The position numbers are program-made. From Chrysemys picta bellii (lineage: Eukaryota), in the NCBI RefSeq assembly GCF_011386835.1, contig NC_088810.1, positions 5,146,001 to 5,210,000 of the forward strand: a stretch of DNA of 64,000 bases, read 5' to 3'. This document shows, piece after piece, positions 1 through 50,700 of the stretch; within the stretch, counting starts at the first letter, position 1, and the number at the start of each line of letters is the position of its first letter.

Positions 1-3000
1 GGGGTGGGGCTCGGTGGCAGCCTGGGATCTGGGGAGCACCTGCAGGGGAGGCAGGGAGGGATGAGAGTTAGATGGAAACCCCAGCCTAGACCAGCTGATC
101 TGAGCCAAGCCCTCGGTGGTCCGGATGGGTGGCTGGATGGAGGGGTGGGGATGGGGGGAGGGATATGGAGGGGTGGGGATGGGGGAGGGGTATAGGGGGA
201 TGGAGTAGATGGAGGGGTGTGTATGGGGGGATGGGTAGGTGGGGATGTGGGAGATGGAGGGGTGGGGATGGGGGGAGGGATATGGGGGGATGGTGGTGTG
301 TGTATGGGGGGAGGGATATAGGGGGATGAGGTAGATGGAGGGGTGTGTATGGGGGGATGGGTAGGTGGGGATGGAGGGGTGGGTGTGGGGATGGTTTGAT
401 GGATGAAGGTGTGTGTATGGGGGGATGGGGGAGATGAAGGGGGGGACAGAGGGATGGACTGATGGGTGCAGGAACAGATGGATGGGGTGGGGGAGGTAGG
501 GTGGGGTGGGGATGGGGAGGGACAAAGATGAAGTAGGGTGACCAGACATCCCAATAAAATCAGGACCGTCCGGATATTTAGGTGTTTGTCCCGTGTCCCG
601 ACTGATGTTTGGTTGGGACGCAATTTGTCCTGATATTTCGCGGGTACTCTGTTTTGGGGGGGGGGTGCTCCCCCGGCAACACCCCCCGCCCCCCAGTGTG
701 TCCCGATATTTTCTTCCTCTCATCTGGTCACCCTAAGATGAAGGGGCGGGGGCGGGGGGGCCTTACCCAGACATCAGCCTCTCTGTGTCGCCAACTGCCA
801 TGGAACCTTCCCCCCCCCAGCCTGGGGAACCCCCAGCCCAGGCCCCACTGACAGCTCCCCGATGGCTGGGGATGTGCGGGGGGGGTGAAGGGGTGGCTGG
901 GCCTGCGGATGGGGCGAGGCGTGGCGGTGTTTGGGATTGGGGGGGTGTCAGGGCTGATTCCCCACCTGGCACTTCGAGTGCAGAAGTGGGGGCCGCAAGG
1001 ATTCTAACAATTCACACAGGCCACTCCAGGCTTGTATTAAACTCCCCAGGTCACTGCTTCTCTCTGGCCTTGGCTGGGTAAACGCTGCCACCACCCAAAT
1101 GCAAAAAAACAAAACCCCTTGGACCCAGGAAGGGGCCCTTGGGAATTCCTCCCCGTGGGTGCCCTCAACCCTTTCACCCCCCTCCGGGGAAGAGTTGAGA
1201 CAGAAAACAAAGGAAATCGGCTGTTGCCACCAGCTAATCAAACAACATTCACAAACCTCCTAGGACACAACAATCCAAATCCTGCTCTTCAAAAAGGTAC
1301 ATTTTATTAATAAAAAAGAAAAGAAGAAAATACATCTGGGGACTCGGGCTCTGGCTGGATTTTAAAAGAGCAGCTACAAGGATTAAGCGCCAAGAATAGT
1401 TTCTTGAGGTCCGGCTTAAAGGTGACAAGCAAACCGGGGAGAGCACCGAGGAGTCCACCAGCCATAACGAAGTCAAAGGGACAAACCTAAGCGCGTCTTC
1501 CGAGACATTCCCGGATCGGCTCACCTGGCCGGGCTTTCCAGGAGCAGTTTCTAGGATTTTTTCATACCTGGCTCTGCCCTGGCCACCCCTCCCCGGAGAA
1601 CAACAGACAGACAAAGGGGGCGGCTTTGTCCAATTTTAAAAACTTCTCGCTGTCCCATTGGCTCTCTCGGCCAGGCGCCCACTCCCTTTTCTTTACCTGG
1701 GGGCCTTTTAACCCTTTACAGGTGGAGCAATTCGAGAACAGCCACCAAGAGGGATTTTACAGCTCCTGGCTGGCTGGGTGTCTATAAAAGGGAGCTACCC
1801 CCCCACCCCATTTATCACAGGGTGTCTGGGGATGGACGGACGGATGGACAGGGCAGCTGGCCGCGTTCCCCAGACAGTCAGGGCTGCGCTGGGGACTCTG
1901 GTTAATTTAACCTTCTCAATCCCAGCCCCCCACCCCGTCCTGCACGTACCACAGGGCTGAGGGGATCCCCTCCCCCGGTCTCTGCGGCAGGTCCCCCCTC
2001 GAAGGGTTAATGCCGCTCCAACCAGGCTGCAGCTTCATGGCTACCCTTGCCCCCGAGGGTGCCTCTTGTATCTGCACTGGAGGTGGGGTCCCACCCGCCC
2101 CCACCCAGCCGTGCCCTCCTGGGTCAGACCCCTGCTCCCCGCTTCTCTGCTCCCCCGGGGGTCTCCCATCCAAGCACCAGCCAGTTCCACCCATGCTTAG
2201 CAAAGAGCCAATGCGAGGATGGAACCCAGGAATCCTGACTCCCCCAGCTCTAACCACTAGACCCCACTCCACTCCCAGAATCAGGGAGAGAACCCAGGAG
2301 TCCTGATTCCCTCCAGCCCCCTCCCCCAGCTCTAACCCACTAGATCCCACTCCCCTCCCAAAGCCGGGGATAGAACCCAGGAGTCCTGGCTCCCTCCCCC
2401 AGCTCTAACCCACTAGACCCCACTCCCCTCCCAGAGCCGGGGAGAGAACCCAGGAGTCCTGGCCGTCTTTGATACACATCCGTCTCCGAGGGGGAATAAG
2501 TCAGCAGACAGGAGGCTCTGAAAACAGGCCCTTTAATCTCCATGGAAGAAGTGGGTTTGGCAGCAGCTGTGGGGAAAGGAAGGGAACACAAAGGGGAACT
2601 TGCGGGGGGGATCACGGGTCTGTGGGATCCCAGGGTAACACACACACACACTGCCCCCTGCGCAGGGCTGTTGGGGGAATCAGTCCCCAGATACCGCAGG
2701 CTCCATCGGCCCCTACGGGGGCAGTGCAGGCCCCACACTCGGCTCTAGGGGGCTCTCAGGGTGCGAAGCGTCACCACACCTGGGGGAGAGAAGAGAAATG
2801 GGCTCAGAGCAGCAATGGGACCAATGGGAGCATCATCTACTGATACGCAGCACCCCACCCCAGAGGTGGCTGCATCTCAGCACCGGGAGAGGGGTCCCTG
2901 TATAACCAGCCGCCACGCCCCACCCCAGAGGTGACTGCATCTCAGCACCGGGCGAGGGGTCCCTGTATAACCAGCCGCCACGCCCCACCCCAGAGGTGGC

Positions 3001-47700: not shown

Positions 47701-50700
47701 CACCTCTCCCCACCCCATCCCCCATCCCATCCCTCCTCTCACACACCCCATCCATCCATCCATCCACCCTCCCCACACGCCCCGCCCCATCCCTCCAGCC
47801 GTCCCCCCCACACCCATCACCGATCCAACTGGATCCATCTGTGAAGCTGCTGAGGCCCAGGCCCCAGGGCTCTGGCTTAGCCCTGCTGCTGTGGGCCGGG
47901 ATTGCCCCTGACTCATTCCCCACCCCCAGGTGCTTCCCGGATCCCAGCGCTGCCCCCCACACGATGGCGTCTCCCCGGATCCTCAGCACCGTCCTGGCCC
48001 TGCTCAGCTTCCTGCTGCTGCTGGTGGCCCTGGGCTCCGACCACTGGCTGGTGGCCACCAGCCGCCTCGGGTCCCTCCATGAGGGGCTGTGGAAGAGCTG
48101 CCAGAATTCGGTGTGTGAACAAATTTCTTCAGCATCAGGTAAGGGCAGCCCGGCTCCACCGGGGAACCCACCGCTGCCACCAACCAGCACCATCGGGCAG
48201 GTCTGTCCCTGGCTGTGGGAGGAAAGTGGGGGCCAGTGGTTAGAGCAGGGGGGCTGGGTGTCAGGACTCCTGGGTTCTCTAACCAGTTCAGTGCAGTGTT
48301 GTTTATTTAACCCAATCCTTTGCTACAGTCTCTTTAAAGGTCACCAGGGCTTTCATACTGCTGGGCGTGATCGCTGGGTTTCTCTCCTCCTTCGCTCTCC
48401 TCGCCTCGTTCCTGCGCTCCCACCTCGGCTCCTTACCTCTGACCCTGCTCTCCTTCCTGGGCAGCTTCAGCGCAGGTACGTCCCCCCTTCCCCCAGGAAC
48501 TCATCTCCCCCCCCCCCGCCCACTACAGCCAGCCGAGGGGAACCGAGCCCCAGCCTCCCCCCTCCCCGAATCCTACCCTGGGCTCTGGCAGCTCCCCCTG
48601 GTGGTGGGACGGGGCAGGGGCTGGGACTGAACGTGGGCTGCACTGAGGGGTGTCCTTGCTGTTCCCTTTGCCCCAGGGCTCTGCACCATGATCGCGCTGG
48701 CCATGTACACAGGGGAGTTCGCTGGGGCCGTGAATGCCGCCCACAGCCAAGTCACCTTCGGCTGGTCCTTCGGCCTCGGCTGGGTCTCCTTCCCCCTCTT
48801 CCTCATCACTGGTGAGTGCAACATTGGGGAGTGTCAAAAGGCAGCTGCCTCTGGGGTGGGACACGGGGGCTGGTTCTATAGGGACCCATCGCCCGGCGCT
48901 GAGATGCACCCACCTCTGGGGTGGGGCACGGGGGCTGGTTATACAGGGACCCCTCTCCCGGCGCTGAGATGCACCCACCTCTGGGGTGGGGCACGGGGGC
49001 TGGTTATACAGGGACCCCTCGCCCGGCGCTGAGATGCAGCCACCTCTGGGGTGGGGCACGGGGGCTGGTTATACAGGGACCCCTCGCCCGGCGCTGAGAT
49101 GCAGCCACCTCTGGGGTGGGGCATGAGGGCTGGTTATACTGGGACCCCTCGCCCGGCGCTGAGATGCAGCCACCTCTGGGGTGGGGCACAAGGGCTGGTT
49201 ATACAGGGACCCCTCGCCCGGCGCTGAGATGCAGTCACCTCTGGGGTGGGGTGCTGCGTACCAGTAGATGATGCTCCCATTGGTCCCATTGCTGCTCTGA
49301 GCCCATTTCTCTTCTCTCCTCCAGGTGTGGTGACGCTGGTCGCCCACCAATCCTCCTAGAGCCGAGTGGGGGGAGCCATGCAGGCCGGACGCAGCCTGCA
49401 GCGTCCTGGGACCAGCAATGAGCCCCGCCCCTCCCTACCGCGGAGGCCTCTGCCACCCCCCCCCCCCCGCCCTTATTCCGTGGAGATTAAAGATCCTGTT
49501 CTCAAAGACTCCTCTCTGGTAATTTATTCCCACCCCCCCCGCGTCTCCCCTCACATGTCCATCAAAGGACTCCTGGGTTCTCTCCCCAGCTCCGGCAGGG
49601 GAGTGGGGTCTGGGGCTTAGAGCCGGGGGTCTGGGAGCCAGGACTGCTGCTGGGCAGGGAATGGGATATGGGGCCTTTCCCCTCTAGGGGGCGCCAGCTC
49701 CCATCCAGGGAGTGTGAGGGGGGGGGGTGCAGAATCTGGCTGGCTCAGGGTTGAGCAATGACCTAGTTACCATAATTACTCACAGAGACATGCAGCCCCA
49801 CAATAAGCTGCCTTTGACGAAGTGGGGGATTTTCTTGTTTTTTCCTTGGTTTTCCAATGGTTTGCATGTAGAGGAGGTGGGACTCAGTTTCCCTGGGTGT
49901 TACTGGTTTAACGAGGTGATGGGAGAGGGAGTTTGTTGTTACAGGGGACCAGCGAGGGAACTTGGGACCCCGGCCAATGGCTGGAGAATGGAGACCCCAG
50001 CGACTGGTGACCTGGTGACCGGGAGGCCCAGCTCGGGAGTCGCAGCCGATTCTGGCCAGTGGAAGGACAATGGGCTGCGGGGAGAGGACCCTGGTGACCT
50101 GACCGACCAGTTCCAGCCAGAGGGGCCAGAGGACAGAAGAGGGGAGAGGAGGCCCATGCGACCCTGTTTACCTGGAGAGAAGACAAAGGACAGAGAGGGG
50201 GCCTGAGGCCAGTGATATCAAATGCCGAACTGGGAAGCAGGGGGGCTCTGGGCTGGAGAGGAGGAGAAGACAGAGCCCACCTGGATGCAGGGGAGAGTGG
50301 GATGTGCTGGGCTGAGGGAGGCCAGGCCTGAGGCCCTGAGAGTTTCCTGTGCTGGGTTCAGACGCTCAATAAACCTCCTGTTTTACACTGGCTGAGAGTC
50401 GCTCCGGGCTAGAGAACAAGGTGGCATTATTCCCTCTGGGAGTGGAGACCCCGGGGGTCCAGAGCGAGTGGACTCTCTGAGGGGCCCACGGCAGAGACAG
50501 ACGTGCTAAGGCTCAGAGAGGTGCGGTTCCAGGAGGTGGAGGGGCCTAACCACGAGAGAGAGTGGACCCCCGAGAAGGGCTGTCGCACTGAAGGGGGGTC
50601 CCCCCAGGGATCGTACGGGGCCAAGAGTGGGCACGATCCGGGCGTCCGTGACAAGCTCCACAGATGGATCCAGCTAGATGGATGATGGGAGTGTGTGGGA

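What the first reader, a model, noticed from the sequence alone, without database searches (positions are those of the whole stretch)
2745..49359. NKG7-like paralogues diverge mainly in the first extracellular loop
Seen: A and B have identical exon sizes and recognisably similar introns, including the intron 3 minisatellite. Between ATSRL and TRAF, 19 of 28 residues differ ([34 protein letters not shown]), against 5/35 in the N-terminus and TM1, 13/45 in the rest of exon 2 and 9/45 in exon 3. In loop 2, VPPG/AAHS also differs. Both keep the GLW-x2-C-x4-C motif, which recalled human NKG7 lacks. Established: NKG7 is a single-copy cytotoxic-granule protein in mammals. Inference: a turtle expansion (3 or more copies) with diversifying selection on the luminal/extracellular face.
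Basis: partly seen in the sequence, partly recalled or inferred. Interest (0 to 1): 0.65.

Follow-up and report, generated by a model that had tools for sequence, protein, structure and literature searches.

The report
Ancient turtle NKG7-like gene pair
Two painted-turtle NKG7-like membrane-protein genes differ mostly in their first outer loop because that loop diverged long ago and has been kept distinct in each copy, while the rest of the gene has been repeatedly copied between them.

Summary
Genes A (- strand, 2745-4364) and B (+ strand, 47964-49359) have four coding exons of identical size, a 65-bp minisatellite in intron 3, and the stated residue differences: 5/35, 19/28, 13/45 and 9/45.

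- **Expansion.** Databases hold at least six NKG7-like groups (A-F) in turtles and many copies in squamates. The window holds only A, B and LIM2.
- **Age.** A-type and B-type both occur in side-necked and hidden-necked turtles, so the split predates living turtles.
- **Selection.** Among orthologues the loop changes no faster than the rest (0.21-0.22 differences per site).
- **Gene conversion.** Intron 3 is 91% identical between A and B, introns 1-2 only 71-73%. Exon-3 trees mix A and B by species, and keeping them apart is rejected (p 0.015 and 0.026).

Best reading: old paralogues with a fixed, copy-specific loop 1 flanked by converted sequence. Interest is modest.

The parts
4190..4364 (-). 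Gene A, exon 1 CDS (175 nt): signal/TM1 and most of extracellular loop 1
   Evidence: ATG at 4364 and a GT donor after 4190. Pfam PMP22_Claudin 28.6 bits against a cut-off of 26.7.
3617..3763 (-). Gene A, exon 2 (147 nt): end of loop 1 (GYIEA), TM2, TM3 start
   Evidence: AG acceptor before 3763 and a GT donor after 3617. Translation.
3293..3427 (-). Gene A, exon 3 (135 nt): TM3, loop 2 (VPPG), TM4 start
   Evidence: Pfam PMP22_Claudin 29.8 bits.
2745..2779 (-). Gene A, exon 4 CDS (35 nt incl. stop): G|VVTLRTLRAP*
   Evidence: The same C-terminus occurs in A-type proteins of seven other turtles.
4190..4259 (-). Gene A, loop-1 coding island, exon-1 part ([23 protein letters not shown] + split G)
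3750..3763 (-). Gene A, loop-1 coding island, exon-2 part (split codon + YIEA)
2851..3263 (-). Gene A, intron 3 minisatellite, 65-bp unit x 6.4
2779..3531 (-). Gene A side of the 3' high-identity tract (about 90% to B). The upper limit is approximate.
   Evidence: Sliding identity: exon 3 0.896, and intron 3 0.914 over 513 nt without gaps.
4281..4490 (-). Gene A side of the 5' high-identity tract (5' UTR, N-terminus, TM1; 0.87-0.93 to B). Limits are approximate.
47964..48138 (+). Gene B, exon 1 CDS (175 nt)
   Evidence: Pfam 31.3 bits. The peptide is found letter for letter in P0012, Chrysemys picta bellii 'protein NKG7-like isoform X2'.
48329..48475 (+). Gene B, exon 2 (147 nt)
48677..48811 (+). 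Gene B, exon 3 (135 nt), loop 2 AAHS
   Evidence: Pfam 32.6 bits.
49325..49359 (+). Gene B, exon 4 CDS: G|VVTLVAHQSS*
   Evidence: The same tail occurs in B-type proteins of other turtles. The database isoform P0012 uses another last exon, near 49932-50015.
48069..48138 (+). Gene B, loop-1 coding island, exon-1 part ([23 protein letters not shown] + split G)
48329..48342 (+). Gene B, loop-1 coding island, exon-2 part (split codon + SLKV)
48841..49251 (+). Gene B, intron 3 minisatellite, 65-bp unit x 6.3
38782..41081 (+). LIM2 (MP20) orthologue in four coding pieces, 6.9 kb upstream of B on the same strand
   Evidence: ORFs. The pieces are 78-98% identical to LIM2-type representatives.

Best explanation
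A and B are two intact, anciently duplicated members of a reptilian NKG7-like gene cluster. They have the claudin / PMP22 / MP20 fold: four membrane helices and a beta-sheet first outer loop with a Cys-Cys pair. The cluster lies in the LIM2-SIGLEC neighbourhood of a painted turtle, or a very close relative.

The duplication predates living turtles. Soon afterwards loop 1 became different between the copies, with B the more derived. Since then each loop type has been held by purifying selection.

The 5' end (UTR, N-terminus, TM1) and the 3' part (end of intron 2, exon 3, intron 3) have been repeatedly homogenised between the copies by interlocus gene conversion. The loop therefore stands out as an island of old divergence. 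Inferred: conversions that overwrite the loop are removed by selection because loop 1 carries the copy-specific function, probably the choice of partner on the luminal or outer face.

Shown: the gene structures, the ancient split, loop conservation among orthologues, and the mosaic with exchange. Inferred: selection against conversion in the loop, and what the loop binds.
For: **Ancient split.**
- A-type and B-type proteins both exist in Pleurodira (Emydura P0008 and P0024), Trionychia (Pelodiscus P0006 and P0027; Carettochelys P0010 and P0022) and other cryptodires.
- In the exon-1 tree of 42 rows, A (9 rows) and B (11 rows) are each one side of a branch, with support 83/77 and 51/85.

**Loop fixed, not fluid (8 species pairs).**
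- A-B loop distance is 0.644 within a species and 0.648 between species (permutation P = 0.33).
- Orthologue distances in the loop are 0.205 and 0.220.
- 11 of 29 loop columns share no residue between any A and any B. The other segments give 0 of 46, 2 of 44 and 0 of 54.

**B more derived.** At the 18 columns where the A and B majority residues differ, the A residue matches the majority residue of the five other groups 23 times and the B residue 11 times, out of 90.

**No excess of replacement changes.** Loop dN is 0.56, dS 0.68, ratio 0.82. The rest of the gene gives dN 0.145, dS 0.181, ratio 0.80.

**Mosaic and exchange.**
- A-B DNA identity is 0.705 upstream, 0.711 in intron 1, 0.725 in intron 2, 0.896 in exon 3 and 0.914 in intron 3. 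Introns 1+2 against intron 3 gives Fisher P = 1.5e-14.
- Same-species A-B distance is below cross-species A-B distance in the N-terminus/TM1 (0.221 against 0.271, P = 0.003) and in exon 3 (0.179 against 0.244, P = 0.006).
- In the exon-3 tree, A and B each need 7 changes. Pairs form by species: Pelodiscus A+B 84/85 and Mauremys A+B 81/59. Lepidochelys A is identical to Natator B.
- The AU test rejects A as one clade (p = 0.0146) and B as one clade (p = 0.0261) for exon 3.

**Fold.**
- AlphaFold model of an A-type stand-in (P0004): pLDDT 88.4, with loop-1 strands at 29-53.
- TM-score 0.90 to solved human MP20, entry 9cbv.
- In MP20 the outer loops make the adhesive contacts, and Cys46/Cys51 sit in ECL1 (PMC11947226, passages read).
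Against: - **Power.** The pairwise dN/dS rests on 27 codons and 19 synonymous sites. It cannot separate an early adaptive burst from a spell of relaxed constraint.
- **Loop dN against introns.** Loop dN (0.56) is higher than the divergence of the neighbouring introns (K = 0.34-0.37). That leans towards some positive selection, though it is not significant (P = 0.06-0.16).
- **Intron 3 may not be neutral.** Its first bases and its repeat are also seen in read-through gene models of other turtles and of group C. Constraint could add to its high identity.
- **No exchange signal in TM2-TM3.** The A-B distance there is 0.381 within species and 0.384 between species.
- **Tree strength.** The per-exon trees rest on 44-58 columns with few starred branches. 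The B clade in exon 1 has only 51% bootstrap support.
- **Proteins only.** No DNA of other turtles was available, so conversion among species is inferred from proteins. Some of those are automatic gene models, and several are demonstrably chimeric.
- **Function.** Nothing here shows expression or a binding partner.
Confidence: 0.72

Rival explanations
1. One reading: continuing diversifying (arms-race) selection on the luminal or extracellular loop 1 of a turtle-specific expansion.
For: - Replacement changes are concentrated in the loop (Fisher P = 1.2e-5).
- Loop dN (0.56) is not below the intron divergence of 0.34-0.37.
- The genes sit among fast-evolving immune genes, with Siglec-like and NLR exons nearby.
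Against: - Loop dN/dS is 0.82 with dS raised to match.
- The loop differs no more between orthologues than the rest of the protein: 0.205 and 0.220 against 0.206-0.297.
- Each loop type is kept from Emydura to Chrysemys.
- The family is also expanded in squamates.
Confidence: 0.06
2. An episodic adaptive burst: positive selection reshaped loop 1 on the stem of the B lineage just after duplication, followed by purifying selection. This is compatible with the best explanation and sharpens its first step.
For: - B is the more derived loop (11 against 23 matches to the other groups).
- 11 of 29 loop columns are fixed differences.
- Loop dN is at or above the local intron divergence.
- Afterwards the loop is conserved (B-B distance 0.220).
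Against: - No test of the stem branch was possible without DNA from other species.
- Pairwise dN/dS is below 1.
- A spell of relaxed constraint gives the same pattern.
Confidence: 0.4
3. There is no gene conversion. The mosaic reflects only stronger constraint on the helices, exon 3 and a functional intron 3, and the loop is simply the least constrained part.
For: - The start of intron 3 and its repeat are conserved in read-through models of several turtles and paralogue groups.
- TM2-TM3 shows no within-species excess of similarity.
Against: - Constraint does not make same-species A and B closer than cross-species A and B (P = 0.003 and 0.006).
- It does not swap loop-2 variants between A and B among species: Caretta A and Lepidochelys B share VAPG, Lepidochelys A and Natator B share AAQR, and Mauremys A and B share VPSD.
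- The AU test rejects paralogue clades in exon 3.
- The loop is as conserved among orthologues as the helices.
Confidence: 0.08
4. B is a decaying or relaxed duplicate, on its way to being a pseudogene.
For: - Whole-gene dN/dS between A and B is high (0.86).
- The database isoform P0012 uses an odd last exon.
Against: - The frame is open and all four splice pairs are canonical.
- B-type proteins with the same loop and tail occur in 11 species.
- B is a starred clade in exon 2 (97/95).
Confidence: 0.03

Closest known systems
[quoted passage not shown]
   Same: - Small four-helix protein of the PMP22/EMP/MP20/claudin family (Pfam).
- B lies just downstream of LIM2 on the same strand. In cattle the order is ETFB-CLDND2-NKG7-LIM2 (PMC12071107, table rows read).
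- NCBI names the turtle proteins 'NKG7-like'.
- In a careful 50-row tree the turtle and squamate genes share an 88/89 branch with the mammal-type NKG7-like representatives and alligator 'NKG7', apart from LIM2.
   Different: - At least six groups in turtles, against what I recall as one gene in mammals.
- A and B keep the two ECL1 cysteines, which the mammal-looking representatives P0169 and P0181 lack.
- A and B lack the C-terminal Y-x-x-hydrophobic ending, found in 0 of 7 A and 0 of 8 B proteins. That ending is present in P0134, P0135, P0169 and P0202 and in turtle group F, 5 of 5.
- Expression and lysosomal location, described for NKG7 in PMC11829009 (passages read), are unknown for the turtle genes.
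LIM2 / MP20 (lens fibre membrane intrinsic protein), PDB 9cbv
   Same: - Best solved relative by sequence profile (E = 1.2e-20).
- Best by TM-score for the A-type model (0.90, rmsd 2.3 A over 163 columns).
- Same topology, and cysteines at positions 46 and 51 of ECL1 (PMC11947226).
- Neighbouring gene in the window.
   Different: - Separate clade (100/100*).
- The window has its own LIM2 at 38782-41081.
- The ECL1 sequences are unrelated beyond the GLW-C-C frame.
ATP1A1 tandem duplicates of Leptodactylus frogs (selection against gene conversion)
   Same: Duplicates shared across species are homogenised by gene conversion, except for a small set of substitutions kept apart by selection (bioRxiv 10.1101/2020.08.04.234435, abstract read). 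This is the same population-genetic mechanism proposed here for loop 1.
   Different: - Unrelated protein.
- In the frogs the function of the protected sites (toxin resistance) was shown by experiment. Here it is inferred only.
CLDND2 (claudin domain containing 2)
   Same: - Neighbour of NKG7 in cattle (PMC12071107).
- As I recall, it keeps the GLW-x2-C-x4-C motif.
   Different: - No named CLDND2 sequence could be obtained. Two short recalled motifs found nothing among the 252 proteins held, so the comparison stays open.
- The two snake proteins that sources name CLDND2 (P0092, P0102) are automatic names within the squamate NKG7-like set.

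Membership tests
PMP22/EMP/MP20/claudin superfamily (Pfam PF00822) | Profile match above the curated cut-off | tested here: met
   Searched exon by exon against a cut-off of 26.7 bits. Exon 1: A 28.6, B 31.3. Exon 3: A 29.8, B 32.6. Exon 2 alone matches nothing significant.
PMP22/EMP/MP20/claudin superfamily (Pfam PF00822) | Four transmembrane helices with a beta-sheet ECL1 | tested here: met
   AlphaFold model of the A-type stand-in P0004: pLDDT 88.4, pTM 0.83, helices 4-24, 59-87, 93-125 and 137-162, strands between 29 and 53. 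It matches MP20, TARPs and claudin-15. The window's own spliced proteins were not folded, because the exons were not joined.
PMP22/EMP/MP20/claudin superfamily (Pfam PF00822) | W...GLW...C...C signature in ECL1 | tested here: met
   Present in A and B. W28, L42, W43, C46 and C51 are invariant in 16 reptile sequences, and G41 is nearly so.
NKG7 orthologue | Position next to LIM2, same strand | tested here: met
   B starts 6.9 kb downstream of LIM2 on the + strand. The cattle order is ETFB-CLDND2-NKG7-LIM2 (PMC12071107). A lies inverted, 34 kb on the other side of LIM2, beyond a Siglec-like and an NLR gene. No ETFB or CLDND2 was recognised in 49.4-64 kb.
NKG7 orthologue | Groups with named NKG7 rather than CLDND2 or LIM2 in a tree | tested here: inconclusive
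   The turtle genes are apart from LIM2 (100/100*). They sit on an 88/89 branch with alligator 'NKG7' and a clade that I recognise only from memory as mammalian NKG7. No CLDND2 was in the set.
NKG7 orthologue | C-terminal Y-x-x-hydrophobic ending. Treating this as a family feature is my inference from the representatives; no paper I read states it. | tested here: not met
   A ends ...RTLRAP and B ends ...VAHQSS. The ending is found in 0 of 7 A-type and 0 of 8 B-type proteins, against 5 of 5 in group F and 4 of 8 in the NKG7-like clade. PMC11829009 contains none of the words motif, tyrosine or C-terminal.
NKG7 orthologue | Expression in cytotoxic lymphocytes; lysosome or granule membrane location | not testable with these tools
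   No expression data were available. The function of NKG7 was taken from PMC11829009 (passages).
CLDND2 orthologue | Groups with named CLDND2 | not tested
   No named CLDND2 sequence was held. Recalled short motifs found 0 of 252 proteins.
Genes under diversifying selection | dN/dS above 1 in the region, without a matching rise in dS | tested here: not met
   Loop dN/dS is 0.82. dS is 0.68 in the loop against 0.18 elsewhere (P = 0.01).
Genes under diversifying selection | Fast turnover of the region among orthologues | tested here: not met
   Loop distance among orthologues is 0.205 (A) and 0.220 (B), within or below the range of the other segments. This is protein level only.
Paralogues evolving in concert by interlocus gene conversion | Same-species paralogues closer than cross-species paralogues | tested here: met
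   N-terminus/TM1: 0.221 against 0.271 (P = 0.003). Exon 3: 0.179 against 0.244 (P = 0.006). Not met in loop 1 (P = 0.33) or TM2-TM3 (P = 0.42). Eight species pairs.
Paralogues evolving in concert by interlocus gene conversion | Conflicting trees along the gene and a mosaic of silent-site identity | tested here: met
   Exon 1 separates A from B, while exon 3 mixes them (7 changes each). The AU test gives p = 0.0146 and 0.0261. Intron 3 is 0.914 identical against 0.711-0.725 for introns 1-2 (P = 1.5e-14).

The most novel reading that the evidence does not exclude
Reptiles carry a cluster of at least six old NKG7-like claudin-fold genes beside LIM2 and the Siglec genes. In this cluster the ECL1 beta-sheet is the module that defines each paralogue, and selection shields it from the gene conversion that homogenises the rest of the gene.

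Only group F keeps the C-terminal Y-x-x-hydrophobic ending seen in mammal-type NKG7. A and B may therefore be surface proteins rather than granule proteins, each with its own ECL1-specific partner. That would be a reptile-specific diversification of a membrane protein family of cytotoxic lymphocytes.
Probability: 0.3. Interest if true: 0.55.

Novelty: new member of a known kind. Interest (0 to 1): 0.33.

Why it matters
NKG7 matters for the killing function and metabolism of cytotoxic T and NK cells in mammals (PMC11829009). Its evolution outside mammals has, as far as my searches show, not been described: no relevant paper turned up, and no paper holds the term 'NKG7-like'.

If the reptile copies are expressed in lymphocytes, their copy-specific first loops would point to what the luminal face of NKG7 touches. 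For genome scans the case is a caution. A region that differs most between two paralogues is not thereby under diversifying selection, because conversion of the flanks produces the same picture.

Tried and rejected
- **A third copy in the window.** tblastn with 15 family proteins (turtle groups A-F, lizards, alligator, mammal-type) hit only A, B and LIM2.
- **Naming the unnamed representatives.** I then read 40 of them. I could recognise LIM2 by comparison with the window's LIM2 exons, and a mammal-type NKG7 clade only from memory. CLDND2 was not found.
- **Word-index searches.** The three searches reached only reptiles.
- **Loop dN against local introns as a test for positive selection.** The result was higher but not significant (P = 0.06-0.16).
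- **Using intron 3 as a neutral yardstick.** This is weakened because its repeat unit is a dispersed element (also at 15427-15574, 28250-28394, 37876-37933 and 39236-39288) and is conserved in read-through models of other turtles.
- **Literature.** 'NKG7' with 'turtle' gave only papers citing an author named Turtle. 'NKG7-like' gave none.
- **Not attempted.** I ran no complex prediction, because no partner is known.

Full report
**What is there.**
- The window has no N.
- Two four-exon genes face away from a 43.6-kb block: gene A on the - strand (CDS 4364 to 2745) and gene B on the + strand (CDS 47964 to 49359).
- Coding exon sizes are 175, 147, 135 and 35 nt in both. All introns are phase 1 with GT-AG ends.
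- Between them lie Siglec-like immunoglobulin exons (15074-16533, -), an NLR gene with CARD, NACHT, NOD2_WH and NLRC4_HD2 matches (20662-26755, +), and a LIM2 gene (38782-41081, +). A further Siglec-like exon (54214-54570, -) and a reverse-transcriptase fragment (60155-60529) lie downstream of B.
- tblastn with 15 family proteins finds no further NKG7-like exon in the window.

**How the searches were run.** Full-length comparisons used database proteins as stand-ins.

**Check of the observation.** Every count is reproduced.
- 5 of 35 residues differ in the N-terminus and TM1.
- 19 of 28 differ between ATSRL and TRAF, counting the split codon Gly/Val.
- 13 of 44 whole codons differ in the rest of exon 2, and 9 of 44 in exon 3.
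- VPPG against AAHS, and GLW-x2-C-x4-C in both copies.
- The 65-bp minisatellite sits in intron 3 of both genes, with 6.4 and 6.3 copies.

**Whose genes.**
- The three whole-codon exon peptides of B occur letter for letter in P0012, 'protein NKG7-like isoform X2' of Chrysemys picta bellii. The window is therefore painted turtle or something very close to it.
- Exons 1 and 3 of both genes match Pfam PMP22_Claudin above its cut-off.
- Database proteins from 14 turtle genera fall into six groups by their loop 1 and tail, which I call A to F.
- A-type and B-type proteins are both present in Emydura (a side-necked turtle), in Pelodiscus and Carettochelys, and in the other hidden-necked turtles.
- Within a species, the copies mostly lie on contigs of one and the same length. 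In Emydura that contig is 327 kb. This suggests one cluster, though I could not see the DNA.
- Squamates also have several copies per species. All 120 hits listed are reptilian, but that search cannot reach far.

**Is loop 1 under diversifying selection?**
- Between A and B, loop 1 (27 whole codons) has dN 0.56 and dS 0.68, ratio 0.82. Fisher on changed and unchanged N and S sites gives P = 0.79.
- The remaining 133 codons have dN 0.145 and dS 0.181, ratio 0.80.
- dS in the loop is itself raised (P = 0.01).
- Among orthologues (9 A and 11 B sequences; 8 species with both), the loop differs at 0.205 (A-A) and 0.220 (B-B) of sites. The other segments range 0.206-0.297.
- A against B differs at 0.644 within a species and 0.648 between species.
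- 11 of 29 loop columns share no residue between any A and any B. Elsewhere the counts are 0 of 46, 2 of 44 and 0 of 54.
- The loop is therefore an old, fixed difference.
- B is the more derived copy. At the 18 columns where the majorities differ, the A residue matches the majority of the five other groups 23 times and the B residue 11 times, out of 90. Notably, A keeps the V-P-x-Y-I-E stretch shared with groups C to F.

**Why the rest looks so similar.**
- A-B DNA identity is 0.705 upstream, 0.80 in exon 1, 0.711 in intron 1, 0.782 in exon 2 and 0.725 in intron 2.
- It then rises to 0.896 in exon 3 and 0.914 in intron 3 (513 nt, no gap), and falls to 0.49 after the stop.
- A second high block (0.87-0.93) covers 47838-48047, which is the 5' UTR, N-terminus and TM1.
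- Introns 1+2 against intron 3 differ with P = 1.5e-14.
- At protein level, same-species A and B are closer than cross-species A and B in the N-terminus/TM1 (P = 0.003) and in exon 3 (P = 0.006). They are not closer in loop 1 or TM2-TM3.
- Per-exon maximum-likelihood trees of 42 rows keep A and B apart in exon 1.
- In exon 2, B is a starred clade while A mixes with group C. Pelodiscus A sits inside the Pelodiscus C sequences (97/90*).
- In exon 3, A and B are mixed, needing 7 changes each, with species pairs. One A sequence is identical to a B sequence of another genus.
- Holding A or B together in exon 3 is rejected by the AU test (p = 0.0146 and 0.0261).
- The loop-2 variants (VAPG, AAQR, VPSD and the window's VPPG/AAHS) sit in A in one species and in B in another.
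- Together this is the signature of recurrent interlocus gene conversion on both sides of a loop that escapes it.

**Family placement and fold.**
- A profile of 16 reptile sequences finds solved human MP20/LIM2 (9cbv) as its best relative (E = 1.2e-20), followed by TARPs and claudins.
- An AlphaFold model of the A-type stand-in P0004 (pLDDT 88.4) has four helices. Loop-1 strands lie at 29-53, so the divergent residues 36-63 cover strands 2-4 and the top of TM2. The model's best TM-score is 0.90, to 9cbv.
- In MP20 the outer loops make the adhesive contact, and Cys46/Cys51 lie in ECL1 (PMC11947226, passages). The turtle proteins have cysteines at the same numbers.
- In a careful tree of 50 rows, turtle groups A-F and squamates form one branch (86/95).
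- That branch joins alligator 'NKG7', a clade that I recognise from memory as mammal-type NKG7, and two unnamed clades on an 88/89 branch. LIM2 lies outside it (100/100*).
- The unnamed representatives could not be named and no CLDND2 was identified. NKG7 against CLDND2 therefore stays open.
- B occupies the NKG7 position next to LIM2, by comparison with the cattle order ETFB-CLDND2-NKG7-LIM2 (PMC12071107).
- One difference may matter for function. A and B, like groups C, D and E, lack a C-terminal Y-x-x-hydrophobic ending. That ending is present in all five group F proteins and in four of eight mammal-type relatives.
- Such endings are classical lysosome-sorting signals. That is general knowledge, not stated for NKG7 in the paper I read.

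**Mechanism, and how sure.**
- Most likely (0.72): an ancient duplication, an early change of loop 1 mainly in B, then purifying selection on each loop type. Gene conversion keeps homogenising the flanks.
- That selection purges conversions across the loop, and that the loop chooses a partner, are inferences by analogy. The analogies are MP20 and the frog ATP1A1 duplicates, in which selection holds a few sites apart against conversion (bioRxiv 10.1101/2020.08.04.234435, abstract).
- Whether the early change was adaptive is open. Loop dN is somewhat above the local intron divergence, but not significantly.

**Limits.**
- No DNA of other turtles was available, so there are no codon models and no direct synteny.
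- Protein sets include automatic models, and some are chimeric.
- Alignments per exon are short.
- Time scales, the single-copy state of mammalian NKG7 and the identity of the mammal-type clade are recalled, not tested.
- I did not consult supplementary files of the papers.
- The closed collections (metagenome and viral contigs) are not relevant here.

Noticed in passing
window 2851-3263 and 48841-49251; also 15427-15574, 28250-28394, 37876-37933, 39236-39288: The 65-bp unit of the intron 3 minisatellite is a dispersed repeat that also occurs elsewhere in the window, including a LIM2 intron. Read-through gene models of other turtles continue from exon 3 into the same intron start (GECNIGEC...) and repeat. 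They include group C and a side-necked turtle: P0003, P0007, P0013, P0034, P0039, P0104. The intron and its repeat are therefore old or conserved.
   Followed up: partly
window 38782-41081 (+): An intact-looking LIM2 (MP20) orthologue in four coding pieces, 78-98% identical to LIM2-type database representatives. It lies between A and B.
   Followed up: partly
window 15074-16533 (-) and 54214-54570 (-): Siglec-like immunoglobulin exons: C2-set_2 above the cut-off at both places, and a V-set match just below the cut-off. A Chelonia model named 'Siglec 13' (P0041) fuses a B-type exon 1 to a Siglec like the one at 54 kb, so that neighbourhood is shared with sea turtles.
   Followed up: partly
window 20662-28825 (+): An NLR-type gene, with CARD, NACHT, NOD2 winged-helix and NLRC4 HD2 matches on successive open frames. 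A leucine-rich-repeat-like frame at 27377-27724 matched no Pfam family.
   Followed up: partly
window 4524-5816 and 46723-47792: Long low-complexity arrays lie directly upstream of both genes. On each gene's sense strand they are C-rich (units such as GGAGGGAT and its complement). The duplicated segment therefore included more than 1 kb of upstream sequence. These arrays produce very long spurious open frames.
   Followed up: no
window 3863-4107 (intron 1 of A): A tandem array of a 68-bp SINE-like unit (CCAGGAGTCCTGGCTCC...), found at many places in the window. It accounts for intron 1 being 426 nt in A against 190 nt in B.
   Followed up: no
database proteins P0021, P0035, P0041, P0005, P0092, P0048: Several public gene models are chimeras of neighbouring NKG7-like genes. 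Examples: Chelonia 'Protein NKG7' strings together exons 2-3 of three groups, and Chelonoidis A carries a group C tail. The chimeras give the gene order A-D-E in sea turtles, but they are unsafe for evolutionary analysis.
   Followed up: partly
database proteins of group F (P0053, P0054, P0055, P0058, P0125): Only group F ends in Y-S-R-V or Y-S-P-V, like the Y-E-x-hydrophobic ending of the mammal-type NKG7-like representatives. Group F, not A or B, may be the functional counterpart of mammalian NKG7. Chrysemys has an F gene (P0055) on a contig of the same length as that of B.
   Followed up: partly
window 59629-61164 (+): A fragment of a non-LTR retrotransposon reverse transcriptase (RVT_1, E = 2e-12).
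   Followed up: no
window 49932-50015 (+): The annotated isoform P0012 of gene B ends in an exon about 570 bp downstream of the conserved exon 4. The conserved tail VVTLVAHQSS, used by B-type models of other turtles, is intact at 49325-49359.
   Followed up: partly
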